Source: Bacteroidaceae bacterium | Lineage (GTDB): Bacteria; Bacteroidota; Bacteroidia; Bacteroidales; Muribaculaceae | Reading direction: 5' to 3' | Length of the DNA: 64,000 bases | Assembly: GCA_963612465.1 (NCBI GenBank) | Contig: CAVDUV010000006.1 | Coordinates: 36,732 to 100,731, forward strand | Shown: positions 20,997-36,271 of the stretch, piece after piece | Layout: each line of letters begins with the position of its first letter | Numbering within the stretch: position 1 is the first letter of the stretch | The notes under the pieces: generated by a model | Seen by the model: the letters and a program-made list of their open reading frames with translations, nothing else | Told to the model about the DNA's origin: nothing | Database searches by the model: none | Position numbers and translations under genes: made by a program

Positions 20997-21062
20997 TTAG
21001 TGGTCGTAGTGGGCGAGGGCGCGGCGCAGGTTGTCGGCCAGCTGCACGCGCATCTCTTTGGG
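20997..21062 (-). pseudogene. orphan 3' fragment (last 21 codons plus stop) of the WYL-regulator gene
   Basis: The reverse complement reads PKEMRVQLADNLRRALAHYDH-TAA. The intact gene ends PKEMRVQLADNLRRALALYDH-TGA at 26228. No upstream coding continuation. Confidence 0.85.
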
Positions 21063-21502
21063 GGATCGTGAAGTGACATGCGGCTACGTAATCGCTATTG
21101 CACTGGTACAACATTTTTGTTGTGTGTGACAAGGATAAATGTAAAAATATAGTTATATTTGCCGTGCACTTATATTCGAAAGGATAGAGGTGCTACATAT
21201 TAATACGGACGTTACTTAAGCGTTACCTCTACATTCAAAACTCGCAATTTTGTAAAAAACTTCGGAGGTGAAGTCGTAGCAGCGTCCACGTTTTGCGCAT
21301 ATGTCGCCAGCCCATACTTTCCGCTATGGAAGGTATGGGTCTTGGTGCTTGCATATTGGGCGTGGGCTGACTGGGTTACTTATTCTGAAGTTTGGGCATG
21401 CGAGGCCTTGAATGTGGAATAAGACAAGTACAGATTCCTACGCCCTTTTTGTGTTATGTTCAGCTATGGGGAATTCAGTTGGACGCCATAAAAACGTATG
21501 CT

Positions 21503-21730
21503 ATGATATTCATAGGCCCTATTATAAAGGCCGAGCTAGATCGCCAGGAGCGCAGCGTCAGTTGGTTTGCTCGCAAGATAGGTTGTGATCGCTCCACAGT
21601 GTATCGCATATTTCAAAGAGCCAGCATCGATACACAGTTGTTGATGCGCATCTCTACCGTACTTGACCATGACTTCTTTGCTGATATATCGCAGAGCATA
21701 CACCATGTACCATATTCAGATTCTCGCTGA
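21503..21730 (+). CDS. small helix-turn-helix DNA-binding protein (75 aa)
   Basis: ORF 21392..21730. In-frame ATG at 21503. HTH-like SVSWFARKIGCDRSTVYRIFQRASIDTQLL. Confidence 0.6.
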   Translation: MIFIGPIIKAELDRQERSVSWFARKIGCDRSTVYRIFQRASIDTQLLMRISTVLDHDFFADISQSIHHVPYSDSR

Positions 21731-21764
21731 TTGCGGCACAAGTGTGGCAATTGTGCAGCACAGA

Positions 21765-21799
21765 TTTCTTTTACGTAACTGCTATTGCCAATATCTTTG
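21765..21799 (+). promoter_or_regulatory. candidate Bacteroides-type promoter for the peptide/radical SAM operon
   Basis: TATCTTTG (21792-21799) fits the -7 consensus TAnnTTTG. A T-rich tttctttt lies at about -33. Motif match only. Confidence 0.3.
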
Positions 21800-21860
21800 C
21801 GTTGTTAAAGAAAAATCCGAATCGCTTGAAAGGACGTAGGAAGTAAACTTTAACAAAAAT

Positions 21861-21897
21861 GAGAAAGCCGAAATGCAAGAAAGAGAGTAGGCAAAAA
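21861..21897 (+). repeat. 37-bp perfect direct repeat, copy A (leader upstream of the 23-aa ORF)
   Basis: gagaaagccgaaatgcaagaaagagagtaggcaaaaa is identical to 22000..22036. Ends 18 nt before the ATG at 21916. Confidence 0.95.
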
Positions 21898-21915
21898 AAT
21901 TAATACTAAGATGAA

Positions 21916-21987
21916 ATGATAGTAGGAATTGGATCAATGCTGGGGATTATGTTGATTGGATATTTAGCCTTTAAAATTTTCCATTGA
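21916..21987 (+). CDS. 23-aa hydrophobic peptide MIVGIGSMLGIMLIGYLAFKIFH (putative small membrane peptide)
   Basis: Hand-translated; below the length shown in the ORF track. Sits at the same spacing from the 37-bp repeat as the 49-aa ORF. No Cys. Confidence 0.35.
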   Translation: MIVGIGSMLGIMLIGYLAFKIFH

Positions 21988-21999
21988 CAAACCAATACA

Positions 22000-22036
22000 G
22001 AGAAAGCCGAAATGCAAGAAAGAGAGTAGGCAAAAA
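22000..22036 (+). repeat. 37-bp perfect direct repeat, copy B (leader upstream of the 49-aa ORF)
   Basis: Identical to 21861..21897. Ends 18 nt before the ATG at 22055. Confidence 0.95.
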
Positions 22037-22054
22037 TTTTTAATTAGAACCAAA

Positions 22055-22204
22055 ATGAAAAAGTATCAGAAACCCAAAGTCGTGGCAAAAAATCTTCCGT
22101 CTGGTTCATATGCAGCTGGTTGTCCAGCGAACCGTTCCGGAGAGACTTGTTTTATGTTCAATGTGCAAGGACCCACATGCAAATATTGTGAACGCTCGAA
22201 ATAA
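22055..22204 (+). CDS. 49-aa Cys-containing putative RiPP precursor MKKYQKPKVVAKNLPSGSYAAGCPANRSGETCFMFNVQGPTCKYCERSK
   Basis: Hand-translated; below the length shown in the ORF track. Lys-rich leader-like N-terminus, 4 Cys in the C-terminal 27 aa. Lies immediately upstream of two RRE-rSAM-SPASM genes. Confidence 0.6.
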   Translation: MKKYQKPKVVAKNLPSGSYAAGCPANRSGETCFMFNVQGPTCKYCERSK

Positions 22205-22222
22205 AGGCAACGAAATTATTTT

Positions 22223-22258
22223 AATTCAAGGGGAGGATTCCCCTTGAATTTTATTCTT
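22223..22258 (+). terminator. 12-bp perfect hairpin plus T-rich tail between peptide gene and radical SAM genes (possible attenuator)
   Basis: aattcaagggga-ggat-tccccttgaatt followed by ttattctt. Lies 19 nt after the peptide stop and 9 nt before the rSAM start. Confidence 0.6.
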
Positions 22259-22266
22259 ATCATGTG

Positions 22267-23736
22267 ATGTATATTCAGCTATCAAAAAATTCCTTTATAA
22301 GGTGTACCCCAAATTATGGGTATATTACAAATCAATTAACTAGGCAAGATAGGGTATATAACGAATCTGGAGCAAGTTTTCTTAAAAAAATAGCACGTAA
22401 GCCGTTGAAGCTGGAAAATATAGTGGGGCAACTTTGTGATGAATATCCAGATGAACTCAAAGAAACCATTGAAAAAGACTTTGTCTCTTTTATAGAAGAT
22501 TTGGCAAATCATGGATTTGTAATACTGGGGGATAGTATTGATGACCTTGCAAAAAAAGAACAGGAATTTTCTTATTCAATAGACGCTCCGTTCACAATGA
22601 CGGAAGACTTTACACAGCAGACCCAAGAAAGGGTTAGCGAAAACACACAAGATTTTTTCCTCGAGGAAGTGCAAAAACGTCCAATGATTTCTGCATTGCA
22701 GTTTGAGCTGTCAAGTAGGTGTAATGAGAGGTGTATACATTGTTACATACCGAACGACAAGAAAAATAAAGGATTTGACATGCCTACGCAAGAAGTGAAA
22801 AGAGTGCTGGATGAATTTTCAGATATGGGTGGACTTTATGTTACATTGTCTGGTGGAGAAGCCTTTTTACACAATGATATCCTTGAAATAATTGAGTATT
22901 GTAGAAAGAAGGATTTTAGGGTTACAATATTGTCCAATTTAATTTCTGTAAAAGAAGAACATGTACAGGCATTGAAAAAGATGAATGTCTCTCTCATCCA
23001 GACCTCCCTATATTCTATGAATCCAGAAATCCATGATTATATAACTACTGTTAAGGGATCGTTTGAGAGAACTAAGTCGTCTATAGAAAAATTGGTGAAA
23101 TCCGATATTCCAGTCCAGATAAGTTGTCCTGTTATGAAAGCCAATAAAGATAGTATTCGCGATGTTTTACTATATGCCAGGTCTTTAAAGATAAAGGCTC
23201 AAACCGATTATATTATGATGGCACGCTCAGATCTGGATACATCTAATTTGGCTAATAGATTGTCCTTGGAAGAGACAGAGAAAGTAATCCAAGACATACT
23301 ACAATTTGATGCTGATTACATTGACAATACGCTTATGCAGAAACCTCTTTCTGATGAAGTGAAATTTAACATGGACAGATTTAAGTCTCAACCAGTTTGC
23401 GGTGTGGGCTATGATAATTGCTGTATAACTGCAAATGGAGACGTTTATCCGTGTGCAGGATGGCAGGACTATGTGATAGGTAATGTGTATCGTCAGCCCC
23501 TAAAGGAAATTTGGGAAGGTAGTAAAAAAGTGCAGGCACTACGTAAAATCACTCAAGCATCCTTTCCTTCATGTCTTAATTGTGAAGCACTTAACTATTG
23601 TAATCGATGCCTTGTTAGAAATTACAACGAAACGAATGGAAATATGTTTGAAATCCCAAAACGTTTTTGTGACATAGCTTTCTTGAACAAAAAGCTGACA
23701 GAAAAATTTGAACACGATTATATATACAAAAAATAG
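22267..23736 (+). CDS. radical SAM/SPASM peptide-modifying enzyme with N-terminal PqqD-like (RRE) domain, paralog 1
   Basis: CNERCIHCY (CxxxCxxC), SGGEAFL. C-terminal Cys cluster CGVGYDNCCITANGDVYPCAGW ... CLNCEALNYCNRC. N-terminal roughly 90 aa resemble PqqD. GTG at 22264 is an alternative start. Confidence 0.85.
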   Translation: MYIQLSKNSFIRCTPNYGYITNQLTRQDRVYNESGASFLKKIARKPLKLENIVGQLCDEYPDELKETIEKDFVSFIEDLANHGFVILGDSIDDLAKKEQEFSYSIDAPFTMTEDFTQQTQERVSENTQDFFLEEVQKRPMISALQFELSSRCNERCIHCYIPNDKKNKGFDMPTQEVKRVLDEFSDMGGLYVTLSGGEAFLHNDILEIIEYCRKKDFRVTILSNLISVKEEHVQALKKMNVSLIQTSLYSMNPEIHDYITTVKGSFERTKSSIEKLVKSDIPVQISCPVMKANKDSIRDVLLYARSLKIKAQTDYIMMARSDLDTSNLANRLSLEETEKVIQDILQFDADYIDNTLMQKPLSDEVKFNMDRFKSQPVCGVGYDNCCITANGDVYPCAGWQDYVIGNVYRQPLKEIWEGSKKVQALRKITQASFPSCLNCEALNYCNRCLVRNYNETNGNMFEIPKRFCDIAFLNKKLTEKFEHDYIYKK

Positions 23737-23742
23737 TTCCGC

Positions 23743-25083
23743 GTGTTTGTTAAAAGATTAGACTCGACAATAGTGAGAGCACTGAAAGATGGTTCTGCTC
23801 TTGCGTTTAATGTTGAAACGGGTGAACATATCGTCTTAGATGAAGTAGGAGGTGCTTTTATTAGTAAGGTGTTGACCAAAGCGCAGGATGTGGATAATAT
23901 ATGTTTATCGCTTATGTCAATGTACTATGGTGTCTCGCTATCTGAATTAAGGACTGATTTTATTGGATTTATTACGGAATTAGGGGACAAGGGAATTTTA
24001 AAGATTTCGGAAAAACCTGAGAATGAGCATGAACTTACTGATATACAGATAGAAATTATAACTGGTTGCAATGAGCGCTGCGTGCACTGTTACATACCAA
24101 ATGCGGAAAAAAACAAGTGTGTGTTGATGCCTAACAAAATGGTGCACTCAATTATTGACCAATTCAAAGTGTTAGGCGGCAAGAGCATAACATTGTCAGG
24201 AGGAGAACCGCTACTTCATCCAGACTTGTGCGATATGATAAATTATTGTGCATTAAACAATTTGCGAATTAACATTTTCACAAACCTAACTCTACTTGAC
24301 GATAAAATAACATCGGCATTATTAGACTCGAATATTGGCGTAGTTCAAACTTCACTATATTCAATGAATCCAAATGTGCATGATGATATAACAAAAGTCC
24401 CAGGTTCATTTGCAAAGACTTTGCATGGAATAGAGAAATTAAAAGAAAATGGGATTGAAGTGCAAATTGCGTGTCCAGTGATGAGTAAAAATAAGGAAGG
24501 TCTAAGTGAATTGGTCGATTTTGCTGTTGGCAATGGCATTAATTTAAGGCTAAACTCTCAGTTAATGGCTCAAAATAATGGCGATGATACTTTTGTCAAA
24601 GGCAATAGGCTCTCATTGATACAAAACAAGGAACTATTATGTGAATTGATGACCAATCATGCAGAATATGTAATACACCATTTATTTGAGTTGTCTGATT
24701 TGGATGCAGCATTGATTGATAACCCCAAAAAAACCTGTGAAAGTTCGATTTGTTCTGCAGGGAAAAATTCATGCAGCATATTGGTAAATGGCAATGTAAT
24801 TCCTTGCCCAAGTTGGGTGGAATGTGTGTTGGGGAATGTTTTTGTCTCATCATTAAGTGATATTTGGAATGGAAGTGCTCTCTTAAAGCATTTACGCCAT
24901 TTCAATAAACAAAAGTTTTATCCCGAATGTTTAGAGTGCAAGGCTTTATCGTTTTGCAAAAGATGTTTCGCTCAGAATGCATCCGGGAATAGTAAATGTT
25001 TCCTTGATATTGATGGGAGAGTGTGTGACGAGGCTTTTTTAAGGAAGGAGTTTTTTGATCGATACGCAAATGGAAATGGCTGA
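23743..25083 (+). CDS. radical SAM/SPASM peptide-modifying enzyme with N-terminal PqqD-like (RRE) domain, paralog 2
   Basis: GTG start 6 nt after the paralog 1 stop. CNERCVHCY, SGGEPLL. SPASM-like CSAGKNSCSILVNGNVIPCPSW ... CLECKALSFCKRC. Clearly homologous to paralog 1 along its length. Confidence 0.85.
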   Translation: MFVKRLDSTIVRALKDGSALAFNVETGEHIVLDEVGGAFISKVLTKAQDVDNICLSLMSMYYGVSLSELRTDFIGFITELGDKGILKISEKPENEHELTDIQIEIITGCNERCVHCYIPNAEKNKCVLMPNKMVHSIIDQFKVLGGKSITLSGGEPLLHPDLCDMINYCALNNLRINIFTNLTLLDDKITSALLDSNIGVVQTSLYSMNPNVHDDITKVPGSFAKTLHGIEKLKENGIEVQIACPVMSKNKEGLSELVDFAVGNGINLRLNSQLMAQNNGDDTFVKGNRLSLIQNKELLCELMTNHAEYVIHHLFELSDLDAALIDNPKKTCESSICSAGKNSCSILVNGNVIPCPSWVECVLGNVFVSSLSDIWNGSALLKHLRHFNKQKFYPECLECKALSFCKRCFAQNASGNSKCFLDIDGRVCDEAFLRKEFFDRYANGNG

Positions 25084-25396
25084 TGAATATGTTTCAATGA
25101 TAGTAGCAGGATCTTTTACTGTTTTAGGGGCTATGGTTAGCTCAATATCACATTGGTTAACGTCACGAAACAGTACAAGAACGCATAAGTTGGAAAAATA
25201 TGTCATGCAATTAGGAGATCAAGTTAAATCTTATTGGTACTTGGAGCGGTTATATGCTCACGAGCTATCTGAATTAAAAAAATGTAACGAGGAAACAACA
25301 TTGAAAAGGAACCGAGCTAAAATAGCAGATCAAGTGGGTGTTCGGCCCAAAATGACAGCTAATGATGTAGATAAACTTTTGGATGATATTCGGTGA
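25070..25396 (+). CDS. small protein with one N-terminal TM helix and charged helical tail
   Basis: ORF 25055..25396. ATGs at 25070 and 25076 overlap the rSAM-2 stop. Helix MIVAGSFTVLGAMVSSISHWL. No family recognised. Confidence 0.55.
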   Translation: MEMADEYVSMIVAGSFTVLGAMVSSISHWLTSRNSTRTHKLEKYVMQLGDQVKSYWYLERLYAHELSELKKCNEETTLKRNRAKIADQVGVRPKMTANDVDKLLDDIR

Positions 25397-26148
25397 TGAT
25401 TGTTGATAGCCACGTACATGTAGGACAATTCAATGATAAATATTTTTCCCCTGCGTTTGTATCAAGGCTGATGTCAAGCGTAGGGGTTGACTATTATGCA
25501 GTGTCGTCTACCACAATGTGTAATGAGGATTACCCAAAGGTGTTGTCTGAAATAAATGAATTGATTGGTCTTGATGGTGAACGAGTGTTGCCTGTTATTT
25601 GGATTACGCCATATGGACTTAAGGGTAGCATTGCATGGTTTCTTGAGTCGGATGTTAGGTGGCGCTGCTTGAAGGTTCATCCATTTCTACACCCCAATGA
25701 CTGGGAACCGAATGGCTCACAGTTTTGCGACGTGATAGACATTGCTCGTGAACTGCATGTGCCATTGTTAATACACACAGGGCATGATAAAAGTTGCATG
25801 TGTGGCAAATATGAGGAAATGATTGCTGAAAATGTTGATGTTGATTTCATCTTGGCTCATGGTCAACCATTGAAGCAGGTGATACCTATATTAGCTCGTT
25901 ATATGAATGCTTATGCAGATTCTGCTTTTATGCCTATTGGGCAAATGAGAGAGATCATTGACAATGACTTAGCACATAAACTTTTGTGGGGGACAGATAT
26001 GTGTGTGCCGTTACATTTTTATTCCCATATAGATCTTGCTCAGTGTTATGGCAAAAAACTGAAAGACTTTCGCGCGGTTTGCTCACAAGAGCAATATGTG
26101 TCAGTGACAAGTATTAATGCAAGAAAATTGTTTGGCATTTCATTGTGA
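25396..26148 (+). CDS. amidohydrolase-2 type metal-dependent TIM-barrel hydrolase
   Basis: N-terminal DSHVHV (HxH), LLIHTGH, ILAHG, WGTDMCVP. The ATG overlaps the previous stop (TGATG). Confidence 0.7.
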   Translation: MIVDSHVHVGQFNDKYFSPAFVSRLMSSVGVDYYAVSSTTMCNEDYPKVLSEINELIGLDGERVLPVIWITPYGLKGSIAWFLESDVRWRCLKVHPFLHPNDWEPNGSQFCDVIDIARELHVPLLIHTGHDKSCMCGKYEEMIAENVDVDFILAHGQPLKQVIPILARYMNAYADSAFMPIGQMREIIDNDLAHKLLWGTDMCVPLHFYSHIDLAQCYGKKLKDFRAVCSQEQYVSVTSINARKLFGISL

Positions 26149-26167
26149 TGGTTGAAGACATTAAAAA

Positions 26168-26293
26168 TAAAGGCTGGCCGTGCGCGGATGCGCGGGCCAG
26201 CCTTTATTGTGGGGTTGTGGTAACGGGTCAGTGGTCGTAGAGGGCGAGGGCGCGGCGCAGGTTGTCGGCCAGCTGCACGCGCATCTCTTTGGG
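26168..26293. repeat. 126-bp direct repeat, right copy (island boundary; part of the intact WYL gene 3' end)
   Basis: Matches 20937..21062 with 3 mismatches. Confidence 0.95.
26169..26205. terminator. GC-rich hairpin (bidirectional terminator), right copy
   Basis: Same hairpin as 20938..20974. Lies 20 nt after the amidohydrolase stop and 22 nt after the WYL gene stop. Confidence 0.7.
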
Positions 26294-29917: not shown

Positions 29918-30114
29918 AATTTATGAAAATAGTACGTAAATACGTGGTTTTTAGGTTGCTGTTGAATTACGCGACAATTGCGTGCTGCATTGCCTGAGAA
30001 GGTGGCTTTAGGCGATGCTGAATGCAAAGTTAGTAAAAATGCGCTACTGTTAAAATAATTGTGGGCAAAAATGTAGCACACCCTTCACGGTGTGGGGCCA
30101 AAGTGCAAAGTCAC

Positions 30115-30155
30115 AAAAAAGATTCATGCCAACGCTTTTACGGGTTGGCATGAAT
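30115..30155 (-). terminator. rho-independent terminator after serpin copy 1
   Basis: attcatgccaac / gttggcatgaat is a 12-bp stem. A T6 run follows on the minus strand. Confidence 0.75.
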
Positions 30156-30193
30156 TACTTGTATGGCACAAATGTGCTATTGAAAAAGCGGTG

Positions 30194-31444
30194 TTATTTC
30201 GAGAATTGCTTGATGCTTATTGTTTTACCCATAAACAGGATGGCGCCGCTATTGCACTCGCGGATTATGTAGATGAATGGGCTGTCGACAATGAAACAGT
30301 TAGGGGCGACAGCGGTGTAGTCATCGGTTGCTCCTGAGGCTACTTTAATTTGGGTTCCGTGTTCGTCCACATCGATGGATGCAGATTGCTTGACAACGCC
30401 CAAAGCCGATTTCGTTGTTGAGAATTTTCCGAAATCAGCATTTTGTGATAATGCTTGATTAATGCCCATGGCAGTAAGAATATGCTGAAGGTCGTAATTG
30501 AATTCTCCTTTGAATTTGGGAAGCCCTATTTTATATGGGCCATTGCCGGGGTTCTTGGCGGCATTGTCGAGCATGTAGTAGAAATCATCCAAAGTCATTT
30601 CGGTTATGTATTTGTTGATGTCAATGCTCCGGTTGGGCAACAGGATGTCCATCTCGAAGGAGCCTTTGTAAGGAATTTTAAGCAGGCTCACGAAGTCGCT
30701 GTCGGCGTAGTGCTCAAGCATAAGGTCTTGGAACATCATGGGCACTTTTTCGCTTATGTTCTTGTAGTTGTGGAAGATGTCATCGCAGGTGTTTTTTTCG
30801 TCAAACGGGTTTGCCCACCACCCATCAAAAGTTGTTGCGTTTACGACACAAAAGCCCGCATTTGCTGGAATTCCTTCAAAAAGAGATGGTATTTTGCCGC
30901 TAGTGGCATCGCTGACCCATTTGTTCACAATGCCAACGGCCTCGTTGCTGTAAAAATCTGCTCCCTTGAAACTTGTGCCATAATTGCTGGTGCAGTTCTT
31001 TACAAACTCGTCGAGAACGCTATAGCGGTTGTTGTATACGAAGAAGTTTGAAGTCGTGAATTTTGTGTTGGGCACGCATTTTGGCAGGTCTTCGCGCAGG
31101 TGTTTATAGTAACTGTTCACCTCATTGATGTCGTAGCTGATGCCAAGCGCTTTCACTATTTCGTTGTAAGTGTTGCCCTGTGCTCCGTTTGCCAGCATTG
31201 CCAGCACTTGTGCCATGCTGTAGGGCGAGATGAATGTGTTGTCATTCTCGTGCGCATTGTTGAGTGTCTTGAAGAGGTTGAAGGCAAAGTCGTTGGCTTC
31301 GGTAGTTATTTTTTGCTCGGTGGCCGATAGTTGTATCTTTTGATATCCGTTTTCTTGAGGCTCATCGCCTGTGTGATTGCAGGCAGTGGCTACTAGCAAT
31401 GTGGTTGCCGCAATAACGGTGTGCTTGAAATTAAAATGTCTCAT
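30194..31444 (-). CDS. serpin family lipoprotein, copy 1
   Basis: Lipobox LLVATAC. Serpin signatures FISPYSMAQVLAMLANGAQGNT and hinge/RCL region DEHGTQIKVASGATDDYTAVAPNCFIVDSPFIYIIRE. Aligns to the alpha-1-antitrypsin C-terminus by eye. Confidence 0.85.
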   Translation of the reverse strand: MRHFNFKHTVIAATTLLVATACNHTGDEPQENGYQKIQLSATEQKITTEANDFAFNLFKTLNNAHENDNTFISPYSMAQVLAMLANGAQGNTYNEIVKALGISYDINEVNSYYKHLREDLPKCVPNTKFTTSNFFVYNNRYSVLDEFVKNCTSNYGTSFKGADFYSNEAVGIVNKWVSDATSGKIPSLFEGIPANAGFCVVNATTFDGWWANPFDEKNTCDDIFHNYKNISEKVPMMFQDLMLEHYADSDFVSLLKIPYKGSFEMDILLPNRSIDINKYITEMTLDDFYYMLDNAAKNPGNGPYKIGLPKFKGEFNYDLQHILTAMGINQALSQNADFGKFSTTKSALGVVKQSASIDVDEHGTQIKVASGATDDYTAVAPNCFIVDSPFIYIIRECNSGAILFMGKTISIKQFSK

Positions 31445-31467
31445 AATCAGTTGATTTTAAAAGTTTG

Positions 31468-32919
31468 TTAGTTCGTTGATTTGAATCCGTATAATAAATA
31501 TCTGATTTTTTCGACTGAGGTGGTGTTGTCTTTTGATAAAGTGACACCCCAGGTGGGCTCGTATGTGCACTCTACAGCGTCATAGGCGCCTGCGAAGTCG
31601 GAGCCTCCGGCATGGTAGGAGTAAGCCAAATAATATGTGTTGTTATAGCTTTGCCCCCATCCCCAATTCATCCGCAGGTAGGTGTATTTGATTCCGTCAC
31701 GCTCGATTTGCATTTCGGTGTCGCCTGATGCTGATTGCATGAACATCCATGATGGGTATCGGTTGTATTCCTCCTCGGTGATTCGGTGTGACTCGTCCCA
31801 CTCATAGTTTATGACCATCTTGTCCTCGTTGGTTCGCGCACCGTCAATGATGAATGTGTGCCCGCCGTCGGAAGCTCCATTGTTGTCAACCATCTTTCCG
31901 GCGACATAGACTGGGCATCCCGACCTTAAGTTGGACATTACCGTGGTAAAGTTGTAGTTGTCGCTCTTGCTGAATGACAACTTGTAAGGACTGAACGCTT
32001 TGGATTCCTTGTCTCCTGTTGTGGAACCTGCATCCCAAGTGTATGTTGTTCCCAAAATTGAGCCTAGGTAGGCGATGAACATGGCCTGGGTGTTGCTGGA
32101 TGAGAAAATTGAGCTCCATCCGTCGGTTGAAAATCCAGTGACGCCGAACCAGTTGTCATTAATTGTGGGCATGTGTGCTGCCGAAGGCAGTGTGGTGCCC
32201 AAATTGTTGCCGGCCCGATAGTGTGCTATGATTTGGCCGCAAGCCACAGGAATGCAACCGGCTGGACAATGCCGCCAAGATCCAGCAGAATCTTGCCGCA
32301 TAACAGTGTAGTTGTTGTAAGGACTGTTTTGATTCCAACTGGTTTTAATAATGTGTGGGATTTCGTCGGTGTTGCTTACATATGCCGAATCGGTGGCAAT
32401 CCACATTCCGTCGCCATATGCTGAGCGCCTTTTTGCTTTGCTGGCACCTTTTTCAAGGCCTTGCCGATTGGTGTCAATCAGCGCCCAAACAGGGTCTCTG
32501 TGCGTCTCTCCGCTTGCTCTCATTGCGGCTACGCGGTCAATAAGACCTTGAATGCTCTGGATGGCAGGATTCTCGACATCGAGCAGATTAAGCACGCCCT
32601 CGTCGGAGAAAGCGAGTACAGGCGGCATGCGTTGGTCGCCCGATATCAGTTTCCACCCTTTGTCGAGGTTTACACAATAGGCCAGGGTGTCACCGCCTTC
32701 ACAGATAGGTATAATACTCCTTACCCTGGCACTCTTGTGGGCTGTGTTTAGGAACTTGCTGAGCATCTGGCGAGTCACGCCATAGTTGATTGTGGATGCG
32801 TCTGCGCTGGTTTGTGCGCTTGTCACATCGGGCGAGCTCTCGAAAATGTCAGCCTCGTTGCAGCCGGTCAGCAATAGCCCGGCGGCAATAAGGTTTAGTA
32901 GTGAAAATGTTACTCTCAT
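31468..32919 (-). CDS. C10 (streptopain-like) cysteine protease lipoprotein with N-terminal propeptide/inhibitor-like domain, copy 1
   Basis: Lipobox LLLTGC. WNQNSPYNNY, candidate catalytic Cys in PAGCIPVACGQIIAHY, His in GGHTFIIDG, NWGWG. Confidence 0.85.
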   Translation of the reverse strand: MRVTFSLLNLIAAGLLLTGCNEADIFESSPDVTSAQTSADASTINYGVTRQMLSKFLNTAHKSARVRSIIPICEGGDTLAYCVNLDKGWKLISGDQRMPPVLAFSDEGVLNLLDVENPAIQSIQGLIDRVAAMRASGETHRDPVWALIDTNRQGLEKGASKAKRRSAYGDGMWIATDSAYVSNTDEIPHIIKTSWNQNSPYNNYTVMRQDSAGSWRHCPAGCIPVACGQIIAHYRAGNNLGTTLPSAAHMPTINDNWFGVTGFSTDGWSSIFSSSNTQAMFIAYLGSILGTTYTWDAGSTTGDKESKAFSPYKLSFSKSDNYNFTTVMSNLRSGCPVYVAGKMVDNNGASDGGHTFIIDGARTNEDKMVINYEWDESHRITEEEYNRYPSWMFMQSASGDTEMQIERDGIKYTYLRMNWGWGQSYNNTYYLAYSYHAGGSDFAGAYDAVECTYEPTWGVTLSKDNTTSVEKIRYLLYGFKSTN

Positions 32920-33098
32920 AATATTAATGTGCTGTTACGCTTGGTTTTTCTGCGACTATAATAAAATCGTGTGCGGCAAATATATTAATTGTTTGTCAAA
33001 CACCACCCCAAAAATGTAAAATATTTTAATACACATTGCATTTTTTAAAAAGTGTTTTAAAAAGCACACCCCTGCGTAGAGACAAAGTGCAAAGTCAC

Positions 33099-33138
33099 AA
33101 AAAAATTCATGCCAACGCTTTTACGGGTTGGCATGAAT
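33099..33138 (-). terminator. rho-independent terminator after serpin copy 2
   Basis: Same hairpin as copy 1, followed by T7 on the minus strand. Confidence 0.75.
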
Positions 33139-33176
33139 TACTTGTATGGCACTAATGTGCTATTGAAAAAGCGGTG

Positions 33177-34427
33177 TTATTTCGAAAATTGCTTGATGCT
33201 TATTGTTTTACCCATAAACAGGATGGCGCCGCTATTGCACTCGCGGATTATGTAGATGAATGGGCTGTCGACAATGAAACAGTTAGGGGCGACAGCGGTG
33301 TAGTCATCGGTTGCTCCTGAGGCTACTTTAATTTGGGTTCCGTGTTCGTCCACATCGATGGATGCAGATTGCTTGACAACGCCCAAAGCCGATTTCGTTG
33401 TTGAGAATTTTCCGAAATCAGCATTTTGTGATAATGCTTGATTAATGCCCATGGCAGTAAGAATATGCTGAAGGTCGTAATTGAATTCTCCTTTGAATTT
33501 GGGAAGCCCTATTTTATATGGGCCATTGCCGGGGTTCTTGGCGGCATTGTCGAGCATGTAGTAGAAATCATCCAAAGTCATTTCGGTTATGTATTTGTTG
33601 ATGTCAATGCTCCGGTTGGGCAACAGGATGTCCATCTCGAAGGAGCCTTTGTAAGGAATTTTAAGCAGGCTCACGAAGTCGCTGTCGGCGTAGTGCTCAA
33701 GCATAAGGTCTTGGAACATCATGGGCACTTTTTCGCTTATGTTCTTGTAGTTGTGGAAGATGTCATCGCAGGTGTTTTTTTCGTCAAACGGGTTTGCCCA
33801 CCACCCATCAAAAGTTGTTGCGTTTACGACACAAAAGCCCGCATTTGCTGGAATTCCTTCAAAAAGAGATGGTATTTTGCCGCTAGTGGCATCGCTGACC
33901 CATTTGTTCACAATGCCAACGGCCTCGTTGCTGTAAAAATCTGCTCCCTTGAAACTTGTGCCATAATTGCTGGTGCAGTTCTTTACAAACTCGTCGAGAA
34001 CGCTATAGCGGTTGTTGTATACGAAGAAGTTTGAAGTCGTGAATTTTGTGTTGGGCACGCATTTTGGCAGGTCTTCGCGCAGGTGTTTATAGTAACTGTT
34101 CACCTCATTGATGTCGTAGCTGATGCCAAGCGCTTTCACTATTTCGTTGTAAGTGTTGCCCTGTGCTCCGTTTGCCAGCATTGCCAGCACTTGTGCCATG
34201 CTGTAGGGCGAGATGAATGTGTTGTCATTCTCGTGCGCATTGTTGAGTGTCTTGAAGAGGTTGAAGGCAAAGTCGTTGGCTTCGGTAGTTATTTTTTGCT
34301 CGGTGGCCGATAGTTGTATCTTTTGATATCCGTTTTCTTGAGGCTCATCGCCTGTGTGATTGCAGGCAGTGGCTACTAGCAATGTGGTTGCCGCAATAAC
34401 GGTGTGCTTGAAATTAAAATGTCTCAT
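33177..34427 (-). CDS. serpin family lipoprotein, copy 2
   Basis: The 416-aa translation is identical to 30194..31444. Confidence 0.85.
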   Translation of the reverse strand: MRHFNFKHTVIAATTLLVATACNHTGDEPQENGYQKIQLSATEQKITTEANDFAFNLFKTLNNAHENDNTFISPYSMAQVLAMLANGAQGNTYNEIVKALGISYDINEVNSYYKHLREDLPKCVPNTKFTTSNFFVYNNRYSVLDEFVKNCTSNYGTSFKGADFYSNEAVGIVNKWVSDATSGKIPSLFEGIPANAGFCVVNATTFDGWWANPFDEKNTCDDIFHNYKNISEKVPMMFQDLMLEHYADSDFVSLLKIPYKGSFEMDILLPNRSIDINKYITEMTLDDFYYMLDNAAKNPGNGPYKIGLPKFKGEFNYDLQHILTAMGINQALSQNADFGKFSTTKSALGVVKQSASIDVDEHGTQIKVASGATDDYTAVAPNCFIVDSPFIYIIRECNSGAILFMGKTISIKQFSK

Positions 34428-34450
34428 AATCAGTTGATTTTAAAAGTTTG

Positions 34451-35902
34451 TTAGTTCGTTGATTTGAATCCGTATAATAAATATCTGATTTTTTCGACTG
34501 AGGTGGTGTTGTCTTTTGATAAAGTGACACCCCAGGTGGGCTCGTATGTGCACTCTACAGCGTCATAGGCGCCTGCGAAGTCGGAGCCTCCGGCATGGTA
34601 GGAGTAAGCCAAATAATATGTGTTGTTATAGCTTTGCCCCCATCCCCAATTCATCCGCAGGTAGGTGTATTTGATTCCGTCACGCTCGATTTGCATTTCG
34701 GTGTCGCCTGATGCTGATTGCATGAACATCCATGATGGGTATCGGTTGTATTCCTCCTCGGTGATTCGGTGTGACTCGTCCCACTCATAGTTTATGACCA
34801 TCTTGTCCTCGTTGGTTCGCGCACCGTCAATGATGAATGTGTGCCCGCCGTCGGAAGCTCCATTGTTGTCAACCATCTTTCCGGCGACATAGACTGGGCA
34901 TCCCGACCTTAAGTTGGACATTACCGTGGTAAAGTTGTAGTTGTCGCTCTTGCTGAATGACAACTTGTAAGGACTGAACGCTTTGGATTCCTTGTCTCCT
35001 GTTGTGGAACCTGCATCCCAAGTGTATGTTGTTCCCAAAATTGAGCCTAGGTAGGCGATGAACATGGCCTGGGTGTTGCTGGATGAGAAAATTGAGCTCC
35101 ATCCGTCGGTTGAAAATCCAGTGACGCCGAACCAGTTGTCATTAATTGTGGGCATGTGTGCTGCCGAAGGCAGTGTGGTGCCCAAATTGTTGCCGGCCCG
35201 ATAGTGTGCTATGATTTGGCCGCAAGCCACAGGAATGCAACCGGCTGGACAATGCCGCCAAGATCCAGCAGAATCTTGCCGCATAACAGTGTAGTTGTTG
35301 TAAGGACTGTTTTGATTCCAACTGGTTTTAATAATGTGTGGGATTTCGTCGGTGTTGCTTACATATGCCGAATCGGTGGCAATCCACATTCCGTCGCCAT
35401 ATGCTGAGCGCCTTTTTGCTTTGCTGGCACCTTTTTCAAGGCCTTGCCGATTGGTGTCAATCAGCGCCCAAACAGGGTCTCTGTGCGTCTCTCCGCTTGC
35501 TCTCATTGCGGCTACGCGGTCAATAAGACCTTGAATGCTCTGGATGGCAGGATTCTCGACATCGAGCAGATTAAGCACGCCCTCGTCGGAGAAAGCGAGT
35601 ACAGGCGGCATGCGTTGGTCGCCCGATATCAGTTTCCACCCTTTGTCGAGGTTTACACAATAGGCCAGGGTGTCACCGCCTTCACAGATAGGTATAATAC
35701 TCCTTACCCTGGCACTCTTGTGGGCTGTGTTTAGGAACTTGCTGAGCATCTGGCGAGTCACGCCATAGTTGATTGTGGATGCGTCTGCGCTGGTTTGTGC
35801 GCTTGTCACATCGGGCGAGCTCTCGAAAATGTCAGCCTCGTTGCAGCCGGTCAGCAATAGCCCGGCGGCAATAAGGTTTAGTAGTGAAAATGTTACTCTC
35901 AT
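34451..35902 (-). CDS. C10 (streptopain-like) cysteine protease lipoprotein, copy 2
   Basis: The 483-aa translation is identical to 31468..32919. Confidence 0.85.
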   Translation of the reverse strand: MRVTFSLLNLIAAGLLLTGCNEADIFESSPDVTSAQTSADASTINYGVTRQMLSKFLNTAHKSARVRSIIPICEGGDTLAYCVNLDKGWKLISGDQRMPPVLAFSDEGVLNLLDVENPAIQSIQGLIDRVAAMRASGETHRDPVWALIDTNRQGLEKGASKAKRRSAYGDGMWIATDSAYVSNTDEIPHIIKTSWNQNSPYNNYTVMRQDSAGSWRHCPAGCIPVACGQIIAHYRAGNNLGTTLPSAAHMPTINDNWFGVTGFSTDGWSSIFSSSNTQAMFIAYLGSILGTTYTWDAGSTTGDKESKAFSPYKLSFSKSDNYNFTTVMSNLRSGCPVYVAGKMVDNNGASDGGHTFIIDGARTNEDKMVINYEWDESHRITEEEYNRYPSWMFMQSASGDTEMQIERDGIKYTYLRMNWGWGQSYNNTYYLAYSYHAGGSDFAGAYDAVECTYEPTWGVTLSKDNTTSVEKIRYLLYGFKSTN

Positions 35903-36271
35903 AATATTAATGTGCTGTTACGCTTGGTTTTTCTACGACCATAATAAAATCGTGTGCGGCAAATATATTAATTGTTTGTCAAACGCCACCCAAAAAATGT
36001 AAAATATTTTAATACACATTGCATTTTTTTCAAAAAAGCATAATATGTTGATAGTCTGAACAGCTAGCGATAGAGTAAAAATAGAATGAAGGGTGGTCTT
36101 TTTGCTTGTTCAAATAATGTGGATTCGTCGTATTTTTTTGAATGGAAACTTATTCTTTTTGCCAAGTTTGTGGTAATTTTGCAATGCGCTGAGGTGTTTT
36201 GAAAATAGAATACGGCCATTGGCCATAAACCATTCAGCGAATAACAACCACTAAAAACACAGTTAATCATC

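What the first reader, a model, noticed from the sequence alone, without database searches (positions are those of the whole stretch)
30099..36029. Near-perfect 2983-bp tandem duplication of a C10 protease plus serpin operon
Both 416-aa serpin and both 483-aa C10 translations are identical. Even the non-coding-frame ORFs repeat exactly at +2983. Differences are confined to the unit ends: a 1-nt indel in the A-run by the terminator, a synonymous ttc/ttt change in the serpin's third-from-last codon (Phe), ggcacaaatg vs ggcactaatg, and tgcgactat vs tacgaccat and caaacaccacccc vs caaacgccaccca upstream of the C10 genes. So the coding parts appear to be either very recently duplicated or homogenised by gene conversion, while the promoter and terminator flanks drift. 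The module is also lower in G+C than its neighbours (spot count 21/60 at 30421-30480). Tandem amplification of a protease/inhibitor pair could be a dosage adaptation and is likely unstable.
Basis: seen in the sequence. Interest (0 to 1): 0.62.

Follow-up and report, generated by a model that had tools for sequence, protein, structure and literature searches.

The report
Tandem protease-serpin duplication, identity likely artefactual
A gut Bacteroidales clone carries two head-to-tail copies of a cysteine-protease-plus-serpin operon, but their base-perfect identity is most likely produced by short-read assembly; the real copies probably differ, including in the serpin's bait loop.

Summary
The repeat is in the sequence as described. 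Units 30099-33046 and 33083-36029 share a 2,748-nt identical interior, and 7 differences lie within about 105 nt of the unit ends. Each unit has a promoter motif, a C10 zymogen gene, a serpin gene and a terminator.

The junction recurs in two other assemblies of the same clone, so a duplication is probably real. The "near-perfect" identity is not trustworthy. Four assemblies of this clone have zero differences across 14-15 kb of flanks each. They carry four different interior mosaics (38 biallelic sites, 15 patches, random order), mirrored in both copies wherever two copies are written. One assembly shows a single unit with copy B's 5' end and copy A's 3' end.

This is what a de Bruijn assembler gives when it walks one collapsed repeat edge twice. 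The retained end differences are chained by gaps under 55 nt, which fits k=55. The true copies probably differ at 38 or more sites, including the serpin reactive loop (DDYT vs GDVI) and a C10 patch.

Recent duplication and gene conversion are therefore unsupported. Within the species the locus is highly polymorphic: C10 is destroyed by two independent deletions, single or doubled, while the serpin is always kept. Read-level proof was not obtainable.

The parts
33083..36029 (-). Unit B, the upstream unit in the direction of transcription: promoter region, C10 gene, serpin gene, terminator
   Evidence: Offset-2983 identity with unit A. Its 5' end carries the allele found in C10-deleted conspecific strains.
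33047..33082 (-). Duplication junction. This 36-nt sequence is unique to the duplicated clone. On the minus strand it reads TCTCTACGCAGGGGTGTGCT TTTTAAAACACTTTTT.
   Evidence: It is present identically in L008 and L019 and absent from all single-copy strains. It was not found in JGI metagenome contigs.
30099..33046 (-). Unit A, the downstream unit: promoter region, C10 gene, serpin gene, terminator
   Evidence: At the four sites where the two units differ, its 5' end carries the allele of single-copy strains L017, L018 and L001.
34451..35902 (-). C10 (streptopain-family) cysteine protease zymogen, copy B, 483 aa, lipoprotein-type signal peptide (LLLTGC)
   Evidence: PF01640 1.3e-16 and PF13734 2e-6. 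Q197, C222, H354, N418 and W419 are invariant in 31 homologues. The AF2 model matches SpeB zymogen 1dki/1pvj and prointerpain 3bb7, E about 1e-11.
33177..34427 (-). Serpin, copy B, 416 aa, lipoprotein-type signal peptide (VATAC); starts 23 nt after the C10 stop
   Evidence: PF00079 1.3e-85. PDB best matches are conserpin 2.8e-55 and miropin 5ncs 2.7e-42.
31468..32919 (-). C10 cysteine protease zymogen, copy A
   Evidence: Translation identical to copy B.
30194..31444 (-). Serpin, copy A
   Evidence: Translation identical to copy B.
35960..35967 (-). Bacteroidetes -7 promoter motif TATATTTG (TAnnTTTG), about 58 nt upstream of the C10-B start, inside the repeated unit
   Evidence: The motif definition comes from established knowledge of Bacteroides promoters.
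32977..32984 (-). Same -7 motif upstream of C10-A, so the second unit has its own promoter
33098..33138 (-). Intrinsic terminator of unit B: 12-13-bp stem followed by U7
   Evidence: Fold -22.5 kcal/mol, z = -5.6
30115..30155 (-). Intrinsic terminator of unit A: 12-bp stem followed by C U6. The 1-nt indel lies in this U-tract.
   Evidence: Fold -20.6 kcal/mol, z = -4.4
30308..30365 (-). Serpin reactive-centre-loop codons (also at 33291-33348). This patch of 7 variable sites switches between assemblies of the same clone: ...ATDDYTAVAP vs ...ATGDVIAVAP.
32012..32053 (-). C10 hypervariable patch, residues 292-303 (also at 34995-35036): TTYTWDAGSTTGD vs TKYSWNAGSTAEG

Best explanation
One clone of an uncultured, Muribaculaceae-like gut Bacteroidales species carries a head-to-tail duplication of a self-contained transcription unit. 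The array has at least two units in at least part of the population. Each unit comprises a promoter, a lipoprotein C10 cysteine-protease zymogen gene, a lipoprotein serpin gene and a terminator. The base-perfect identity of the 2,748-nt interior is not a property of the DNA. It arises because a short-read de Bruijn assembler (SPAdes/metaSPAdes type) merges the two copies into one edge, pops the single-base bubbles between them, and then walks that consensus edge twice (flank - unit - junction - unit - flank). Only differences chained to unique sequence by gaps shorter than k survive, and those are the 7 'end' differences. The real copies probably differ at 38 or more interior positions (about 1.4% or more). 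These include the serpin reactive-centre loop (DDYT vs GDVI) and a surface patch of the protease. The array therefore holds two allelic versions of the module that also circulate singly in the species. The array most likely arose by unequal or illegitimate recombination (TGCT microhomology at the junction), possibly between a resident and an incoming allele. It can collapse back to one unit by homologous recombination. Shown: the repeat, the junction in three assemblies, the mosaics, the locus polymorphism, and the family membership of both proteins. Inferred: the assembler mechanism, the true divergence between copies, the origin of the array, and inhibition of the C10 by the serpin.
For: (1) Window vs L008 (GCA_963599845.1) over 21,251 nt shows 50 differences. 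All lie inside the units, 25 per copy, and they mirror each other exactly. None falls in about 15.3 kb of flank, the junction or the unit ends. (2) L019 (GCA_963601825.1) gives the same result with a different set of 22 mirrored sites and zero flank differences over 17.4 kb. (3) L020 (GCA_963614815.1) is the same clone, with zero flank differences and an N scaffold gap. It is written as one unit with copy B's 5' end and copy A's 3' end, and it carries a fourth mosaic. (4) There are 38 variable sites, all biallelic, in 15 patches. No two sites within 55 nt are discordant. The order of choices along the unit is indistinguishable from coin flips (runs tests P = 0.71-0.87). (5) The phased end differences are separated by 22, 49 and 33 nt at one end and 38, 7, 45 and 5 nt at the other, all below 55. 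The nearest between-assembly variable sites lie 105 and 60 nt further in, both above 55. This fits the largest default k of metaSPAdes (the k value is from my own knowledge). (6) Sister records of the same accession series are named 'Spades_..._contig_...'. metaSPAdes deliberately masks such bulges to give a consensus backbone (PMC5411777). (7) Both alleles of the variable patches exist in other strains. DDYT occurs in L021 and GDVI in L017 and L010, so they are real alleles and not errors. (8) The phaseable ends differ at 7 sites in about 200 nt plus a fully diverged 12-16 nt. A 0% interior would be odd next to that. (9) The junction sequence cannot be made by an assembler and recurs in three assemblies. 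Tandem arrays of diverged C10-serpin pairs exist at the same site in relative L003.
Against: No reads of the source samples could be obtained. All served runs hold the locus at 2-9x as 150-450-nt Logan contigs of other strains, and none covers the junction. Depth and allele ratios at the 38 sites were therefore never seen. The assembler and k-mer size of the window's own record are inferred from sister records. SPAdes' handling of such loops is recalled from memory and was not tested. Independent short-tract gene conversion in sublineages of the clone would in principle give the same mosaics.
Confidence: 0.7

Rival explanations
1. The interior identity is real. An older duplication is kept homogeneous by gene conversion between the copies while the unit ends escape conversion.
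For: The assembled sequence shows a 100% interior with diverged ends. In each two-copy assembly the copies are identical to each other but differ between assemblies, which formally is the pattern of concerted evolution.
Against: This would need about 15 separate short conversion tracts to go to completion independently in each of three sublineages. No patch could be left unconverted, and not one substitution could occur in about 15 kb of flank. The choices along the unit are random rather than tract-like. The boundary of 'unconverted' sequence coincides with a 55-nt chaining limit. The single-unit assembly L020 is a random mosaic, not a one-crossover chimera.
Confidence: 0.1
2. The duplication is very recent, and the copies have not had time to diverge.
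For: 2,748 nt of identity in the assembly.
Against: The ends already differ at 7 sites in about 200 nt, plus a completely diverged 12-16-nt stretch and an extra stretch of about 9 nt at the junction. The two 5' ends match two different alleles circulating in the species. The interior varies between assemblies of one clone.
Confidence: 0.03
3. The chromosome has one unit, as written in L020. The junction would come from a minority form: a subpopulation with the array, a higher-order amplification, or an excised or circular unit. The assembler then threaded that form into the main path.
For: The assembly graph E-X-F plus X-J-X is compatible with all of these. One assembly of the same clone has a single unit with exactly the outer ends. 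No junction-covering contig appears in 8 low-depth runs of other strains.
Against: Three of four assemblies of the clone include the junction. The unit carries no replication or recombinase gene. A relative has an unambiguous chromosomal array of diverged pairs at this site. The interior mosaics imply two alleles at near-equal depth, as expected for 1:1 copies.
Confidence: 0.1
4. Mixed conspecific strains in each sample, not paralogues, created the bubbles and the apparent repeat.
For: The locus is highly polymorphic in the species, and many contigs break in it.
Against: Other strains differ from this clone by 0.4-1% in the flanks as well. Yet the four assemblies show no flank noise at all. 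A junction joining a unit's 3' end to a unit's 5' end must exist physically.
Confidence: 0.05

Closest known systems
Collapsed or consensus repeats in short-read de Bruijn assemblies (metaSPAdes bulge projection and repeat resolution; Nurk et al. 2017, PMC5411777)
   Same: Single-base differences between two near-identical paths are masked into one consensus edge, and that edge is then used wherever the path passes. Only variants linked to unique sequence within k survive.
   Different: Here the masked 'strains' are two paralogous copies in one genome. The collapse was not observed directly. It is inferred from four assemblies of one clone.
Spontaneous tandem duplication and amplification in bacteria, formed by microhomology or unequal recombination and lost by RecA-dependent recombination
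   Same: A head-to-tail repeat of a chromosomal segment with a novel junction. It is single-copy in relatives, and copy number appears variable within the clone.
   Different: The copies seem to be two different alleles and not a fresh copy. The junction carries extra, diverged nucleotides where a clean microhomology join would be expected.
C10 protease-inhibitor operons: bfp1/bfp4 with staphostatin-like bfi genes in Bacteroides fragilis (Thornton et al. 2010, PMC2873492); speB-spi in Streptococcus pyogenes; staphopain-staphostatin operons
   Same: A C10 or papain-like cysteine protease zymogen gene is directly followed by, and apparently co-transcribed with, an inhibitor gene. Both are in Bacteroidales, and the protease genes are strain-variable.
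   Different: The partner is a 416-aa serpin, not a small staphostatin-like or prodomain-like inhibitor. No paper in the searched library describes a C10-serpin operon. Here the inhibitor outlives the protease in most strains.
Miropin of Tannerella forsythia and other Bacteroidetes/gut serpins (PDB 5NCS; siropins)
   Same: A lipoprotein-type bacterial serpin of a host-associated Bacteroidales, with phmmer E = 2.7e-42 to miropin.
   Different: The hinge is EHGTQIKVA where the consensus is ExGTEAAAA. The reactive loop is two residues longer than in conserpin. The gene is genetically coupled to a cysteine protease.

Membership tests
Tandem segmental duplication (real, in the DNA) | Head-to-tail repeat with a novel junction sequence | tested here: met
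   The junction lies at 33047-33082.
Tandem segmental duplication (real, in the DNA) | Junction found in independent assemblies | tested here: met
   L008 and L019 carry the identical junction, but they are the same clone. L020 lacks it.
Tandem segmental duplication (real, in the DNA) | About 2x read depth over the unit, and reads or read pairs across the junction | not testable with these tools
Available runs hold low-depth Logan contigs of other strains.
Tandem segmental duplication (real, in the DNA) | Single copy at the syntenic site in relatives | tested here: met
   L002, L004, L006, L017 and L018 have one unit between the HTH-S24 gene and namZ.
Concerted evolution / gene conversion between paralogues | Copies within a genome are truly identical in phased data while differing between genomes | not testable with these tools
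   Only unphased short-read assemblies are available.
Concerted evolution / gene conversion between paralogues | Tract-like exchange, i.e. neighbouring variable sites switch together over hundreds of nt | tested here: not met
   Fifteen patches switch independently, and the runs tests fit a random order.
Peptidase family C10 (streptopain) | Profile match above the curated threshold | tested here: met
   PF01640 at 61.9 bits against a cut-off of 26. The prodomain PF13734 scores 28.6 against 25.
Peptidase family C10 (streptopain) | Catalytic Cys-His with an oxyanion Gln and the NWGW motif | tested here: met
   Q197, C222, H354, N418, W419 and G420 are invariant in 31 homologues.
Peptidase family C10 (streptopain) | SpeB/interpain zymogen fold | tested here: met
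   AF2 model with pLDDT 79.7. Foldseek prob 1.00, E 1e-11 to 2e-10 against 1pvj, 1dki and 3bb7. There is no sequence-level PDB hit.
Peptidase family C10 (streptopain) | Proteolytic activity | not testable with these tools
   Needs expression and assay.
Inhibitory serpin | Serpin fold or profile | tested here: met
   PF00079 1.3e-85. There are 176 PDB serpins at E < 1e-20.
Inhibitory serpin | Hinge consensus P17-P9 ExGTEAAAA, allowing loop insertion | tested here: inconclusive
   The sequence is E-H-G-T-Q-I-K-V-A. P17, P15 and P14 fit. P12-P9 are I-K-V-A, not Ala-rich. No charged residue sits at an even position, so insertion is plausible but unproven.
Inhibitory serpin | Covalent SDS-stable complex with a target protease | not testable with these tools
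   Biochemistry needed.
C10 protease + cognate inhibitor operon (Bfp-Bfi, SpeB-Spi type) | Inhibitor gene directly adjacent and co-oriented, in one transcription unit | tested here: met
   The gap is 23 nt, with one promoter motif upstream and one terminator downstream of each pair. The pairing is conserved in a clade at 41% identity in another genomic context. Co-transcription itself was not measured.
C10 protease + cognate inhibitor operon (Bfp-Bfi, SpeB-Spi type) | Inhibitor is staphostatin-like or prodomain-like | tested here: not met
   The partner is a serpin.

The most novel reading that the evidence does not exclude
The C10-serpin module is a polymorphic effector-protector pair, and the two-unit array fixes two specificities in one genome. 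On this reading the protease is a surface or secreted weapon, or a costly tool, that is repeatedly lost. The serpin is kept as an 'orphan' protector against the proteases of neighbours, or of the host. Its bait loop (DDYT, GDVI, DGLI, GDII and others) would co-evolve with a variable patch on the protease. The duplication would then be a haploid way of holding two alleles of a balanced polymorphism, not a dosage change.
Probability: 0.12. Interest if true: 0.7.

Novelty: new variant of a known kind. Interest (0 to 1): 0.35.

Why it matters
There are two lessons. The first is methodological. A "base-perfect" multi-kilobase tandem repeat in a short-read MAG cannot be read as a young duplication or as gene conversion. 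Comparing several assemblies of the same clone exposes the collapse without reads, through mirrored differences, random mosaics and zero flank noise. The same test can be applied to similar findings in this scan.

The second is biological. The locus shows a cysteine protease genetically coupled to a serpin, which the searched literature does not describe. The protease has been lost by at least two independent deletions within the species, is broken in two relatives, and is doubled or arrayed in others. The serpin is always intact and varies mainly in its bait loop. That pattern is a testable lead on what bacterial serpins are for in gut Bacteroidales.

Tried and rejected
1. Read depth and junction reads. 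Three run searches and two read-laying runs returned only low-depth Logan contigs of other strains, and none covered the junction. No conclusion on copy number was possible.
I could not look for further copies in the window's genome or count copies in relatives by that route.
3. An exact scan of JGI metagenome contigs for the junction gave 0 hits.
4. A search for the MAG project's paper via 'cleanbin' found nothing relevant.
5. I considered strain mixture as the source of the interior variation and rejected it, because the flanks carry no noise.
6. I considered an ancient duplication shared with relative L003 and rejected it. L003's two pairs group together with 100/100 support, and the species in between have one unit, so the duplications are independent or at least not orthologous.
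7. A sequence-level PDB search with the C10 found nothing. A fold search was needed.
8. The sigma-70 promoter scan is uninformative for Bacteroidetes, so the TAnnTTTG motif was used in its place. That motif is not significantly enriched in the window as a whole (41 observed vs 32 expected).
Full report
**Observation**

A self-comparison at offset 2983 confirms the repeat.
- Unit A is 30099-33046 and unit B is 33083-36029, joined by a 36-nt junction.
- The interior, 30204-32951 against 33187-35934, is 2,748 nt at 100% identity.
- Both 483-aa and both 416-aa translations are identical.
- The module has lower G+C (0.43-0.50) than its neighbours (0.53-0.59).

**Anatomy**

All genes lie on the minus strand.
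- Each unit starts with a Bacteroidetes -7 motif, TATATTTG, about 58 nt upstream of the start codon.
- The first gene encodes a C10 protease zymogen.
  - Pfam gives PF01640 at 1.3e-16 and the I69-like prodomain at 2e-6.
  - Q197, C222, H354 and N418-W419-G420 are invariant in 31 homologues.
  - The AlphaFold model (pLDDT 79.7) matches SpeB zymogen and prointerpain A at E about 1e-11.
- After a 23-nt gap comes the serpin (PF00079 1.3e-85). Its best PDB matches are conserpin and miropin.
- Each unit ends in a strong hairpin with a U-tract terminator (-20.6 and -22.5 kcal/mol).
- Both proteins have lipoprotein-type signal peptides.
- Flanking genes are namZ, an SSF symporter and a WYL regulator downstream, and a divergent HTH-S24 repressor-like gene and an M16 peptidase upstream.
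- The organism is an uncultured Bacteroidales. Its NadB is 95% identical to a protein labelled 'Bacteroidales bacterium' and 85-88% to 'Muribaculaceae bacterium'.

**Comparative survey**

Exact-protein look-ups brought in 25 further loci that carry the module or the syntenic site (L001-L006, L008-L025).
- Related species (L002, L004, L006; C10 77-82% identical) have one unit at the same site.
- Within the species (flanks 98-100% identical) there are four haplotypes.
  - C10 destroyed by a 1,207-nt microhomology deletion, with the serpin kept. This is the commonest form, in L010-L016 (16 contigs).
  - C10 reduced to 250 aa by a different in-frame deletion that removes C222 and H354, with the serpin kept (L021, L023).
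  - One intact unit (L017, L018).
  - Two units: the window, L008 and L019.
- A more distant relative, L003, has two clearly diverged pairs in one operon plus the start of a third C10. Its pairs are 80% (C10) and 75% (serpin) identical and form their own clade with 100/100 support.
- The C10-serpin pairing also exists in a clade at 41% identity, in a different genomic context.

**The key result**

The window, L008, L019 and L020 are one clone.
- Over 21.3, 17.5 and 17.3 kb of alignment there is not one difference in the flanks, the unit ends or the junction.
- L008 nevertheless differs from the window at 25 interior sites and L019 at 22 others. Every one is mirrored at +2983 in the second copy.
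- L020 has a single unit with copy B's 5' end and copy A's 3' end, a scaffold N gap, and a fourth interior mosaic.
- In total 38 sites vary. All are biallelic and they fall in 15 patches. No sites within 55 nt disagree, and the order of choices along the unit fits coin flips (runs tests P = 0.71-0.87).

**Interpretation**

A short-read de Bruijn assembler produces exactly this pattern.
- Two paralogues about 1-2% apart merge into one edge.
- Their single-base bubbles, at roughly equal depth, are popped one way or the other.
- The consensus edge is then traversed twice because a junction edge exists.
- metaSPAdes is designed to mask such bulges into a 'consensus backbone' (PMC5411777). Sister records of the same accession series are named Spades_..._contig_....
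- The end differences that survive are chained to unique sequence by gaps of 22, 49 and 33 nt at one end and 38, 7, 45 and 5 nt at the other, all below 55. The first between-assembly variable sites lie 105 and 60 nt further in.
- This fits k = 55, the largest default k of metaSPAdes. The default k and SPAdes' loop handling come from my own knowledge and were not tested.

The biological alternative is independent gene conversion in each sublineage.
- It would need about 15 short tracts to go to completion three times over, with no flank substitution and no residual heterogeneity.
- I give it about 0.1.

**What the real DNA probably looks like**
- There are two units, or more, or a mixture of one-unit and two-unit cells.
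- The copies differ at 38 or more interior sites on top of the 7 end sites and the fully diverged tail.
- Both versions of the variable patches circulate in other strains, so they are genuine alleles. The serpin loop reads ...ATDDYTAVAP in L021 and ...ATGDVIAVAP in L017 and L010. The C10 patch at residues 292-303 reads TTYTWDAGSTTGD or TKYSWNAGSTAEG.
- At the four sites where the two 5' ends differ, each matches a different population allele.
- The junction-specific 3' piece is found in no single-copy strain.
- The array therefore looks like two alleles set in tandem, not a fresh copy. The junction shares TGCT with both parental sequences but also carries about 9 extra nucleotides.
- Pooled over the variable sites, C10 has 13 non-synonymous and 4 synonymous differences (pN/pS about 0.9). 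The serpin has 8 and 13 (about 0.16), with three replacements clustered in the loop.

**Function (inferred)**
- By analogy with SpeB-Spi, the staphopain-staphostatin operons and Bfp-Bfi of B. fragilis (PMC2873492), the downstream inhibitor probably restrains the co-expressed cysteine protease. Here that would be cross-class inhibition by a serpin.
- The variable loop residues sit about P6-P3 relative to conserpin's P1. The loop is two residues longer, so the scissile bond is uncertain.
- The hinge (EHGTQIKVA) is non-canonical but has no charged residue at an inserting position.
- C10 is recurrently inactivated while the serpin stays intact: two deletions in the species, frameshifts in L006 and a nonsense codon in L003a. 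The serpin therefore also has a role independent of its own protease.
- No paper in the searched library describes a C10-serpin operon.

**Limits**
- No reads of the source samples were available.
- Copy number and allele ratios are therefore inferred, not seen.

**Verdict**
- The 'near-perfect' identity, and with it the readings of recent duplication, gene conversion and dosage, is most likely an artefact.
- The duplication itself is an ordinary kind of event.
- The polymorphic C10-serpin locus is a modestly interesting new variant of protease-inhibitor operons.

Noticed in passing
window 34511-35717 (and the equivalent in unit A); loci L010-L016: In the commonest haplotype of the species, a 1,207-nt microhomology-mediated deletion removes most of the C10 gene. 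It leaves a frameshifted remnant of about 60 native codons, while the serpin stays intact.
   Followed up: partly
L021 7225-7977; L023 4952-5704 (window equivalent about 34717-35393): A second, independent in-frame deletion (TCAGCAT microhomology) gives a 250-aa C10 that lacks the catalytic Cys and His. The serpin is again intact and carries the DDYT loop allele.
   Followed up: partly
L003 7257-12818: A relative has an array of C10a-serpin-C10b-serpin plus the start of a third C10, at 34-nt spacing and without internal terminators. C10a carries a TAG in place of the first Trp of the conserved NWGW motif. The contig ends inside the third copy.
   Followed up: partly
L006 10001-11447: The single C10 gene of this related species reads through three frames (two frameshifts). 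It is either a pseudogene or carries assembly errors. The serpin next to it is intact.
   Followed up: no
L005, L006 record titles: MAG records that carry this Bacteroidales locus are titled 'Bacteroides fragilis' and 'Agathobacter rectalis'. These organism labels are evidently unreliable.
   Followed up: no
L001 10001-11473 vs window 34430-36030: In a strain whose flanks are 0.4% diverged from the window, the C10 gene is 2.5% diverged. Its contig stops 21 nt after the C10 stop. Many other contigs also break in this locus (L005, L009, L018, L022).
   Followed up: partly
window 30077-30094 (-) and 30025-30032 (-): Between unit A's terminator and namZ lie a short CACACC/GGTGTG hairpin and a further TAnnTTTG motif. 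The hairpin region is the fully diverged stretch that differs between the junction and the flank, and between species.
   Followed up: no
window 21000-26200; L010-L017: The radical-SAM peptide island next to the WYL gene is present only in the duplicated clone (window, L008, L020). It is absent from the other conspecific haplotypes, where the WYL gene is followed directly by the giant Glug-domain gene. No public run served here holds more than 7% of its words.
   Followed up: partly
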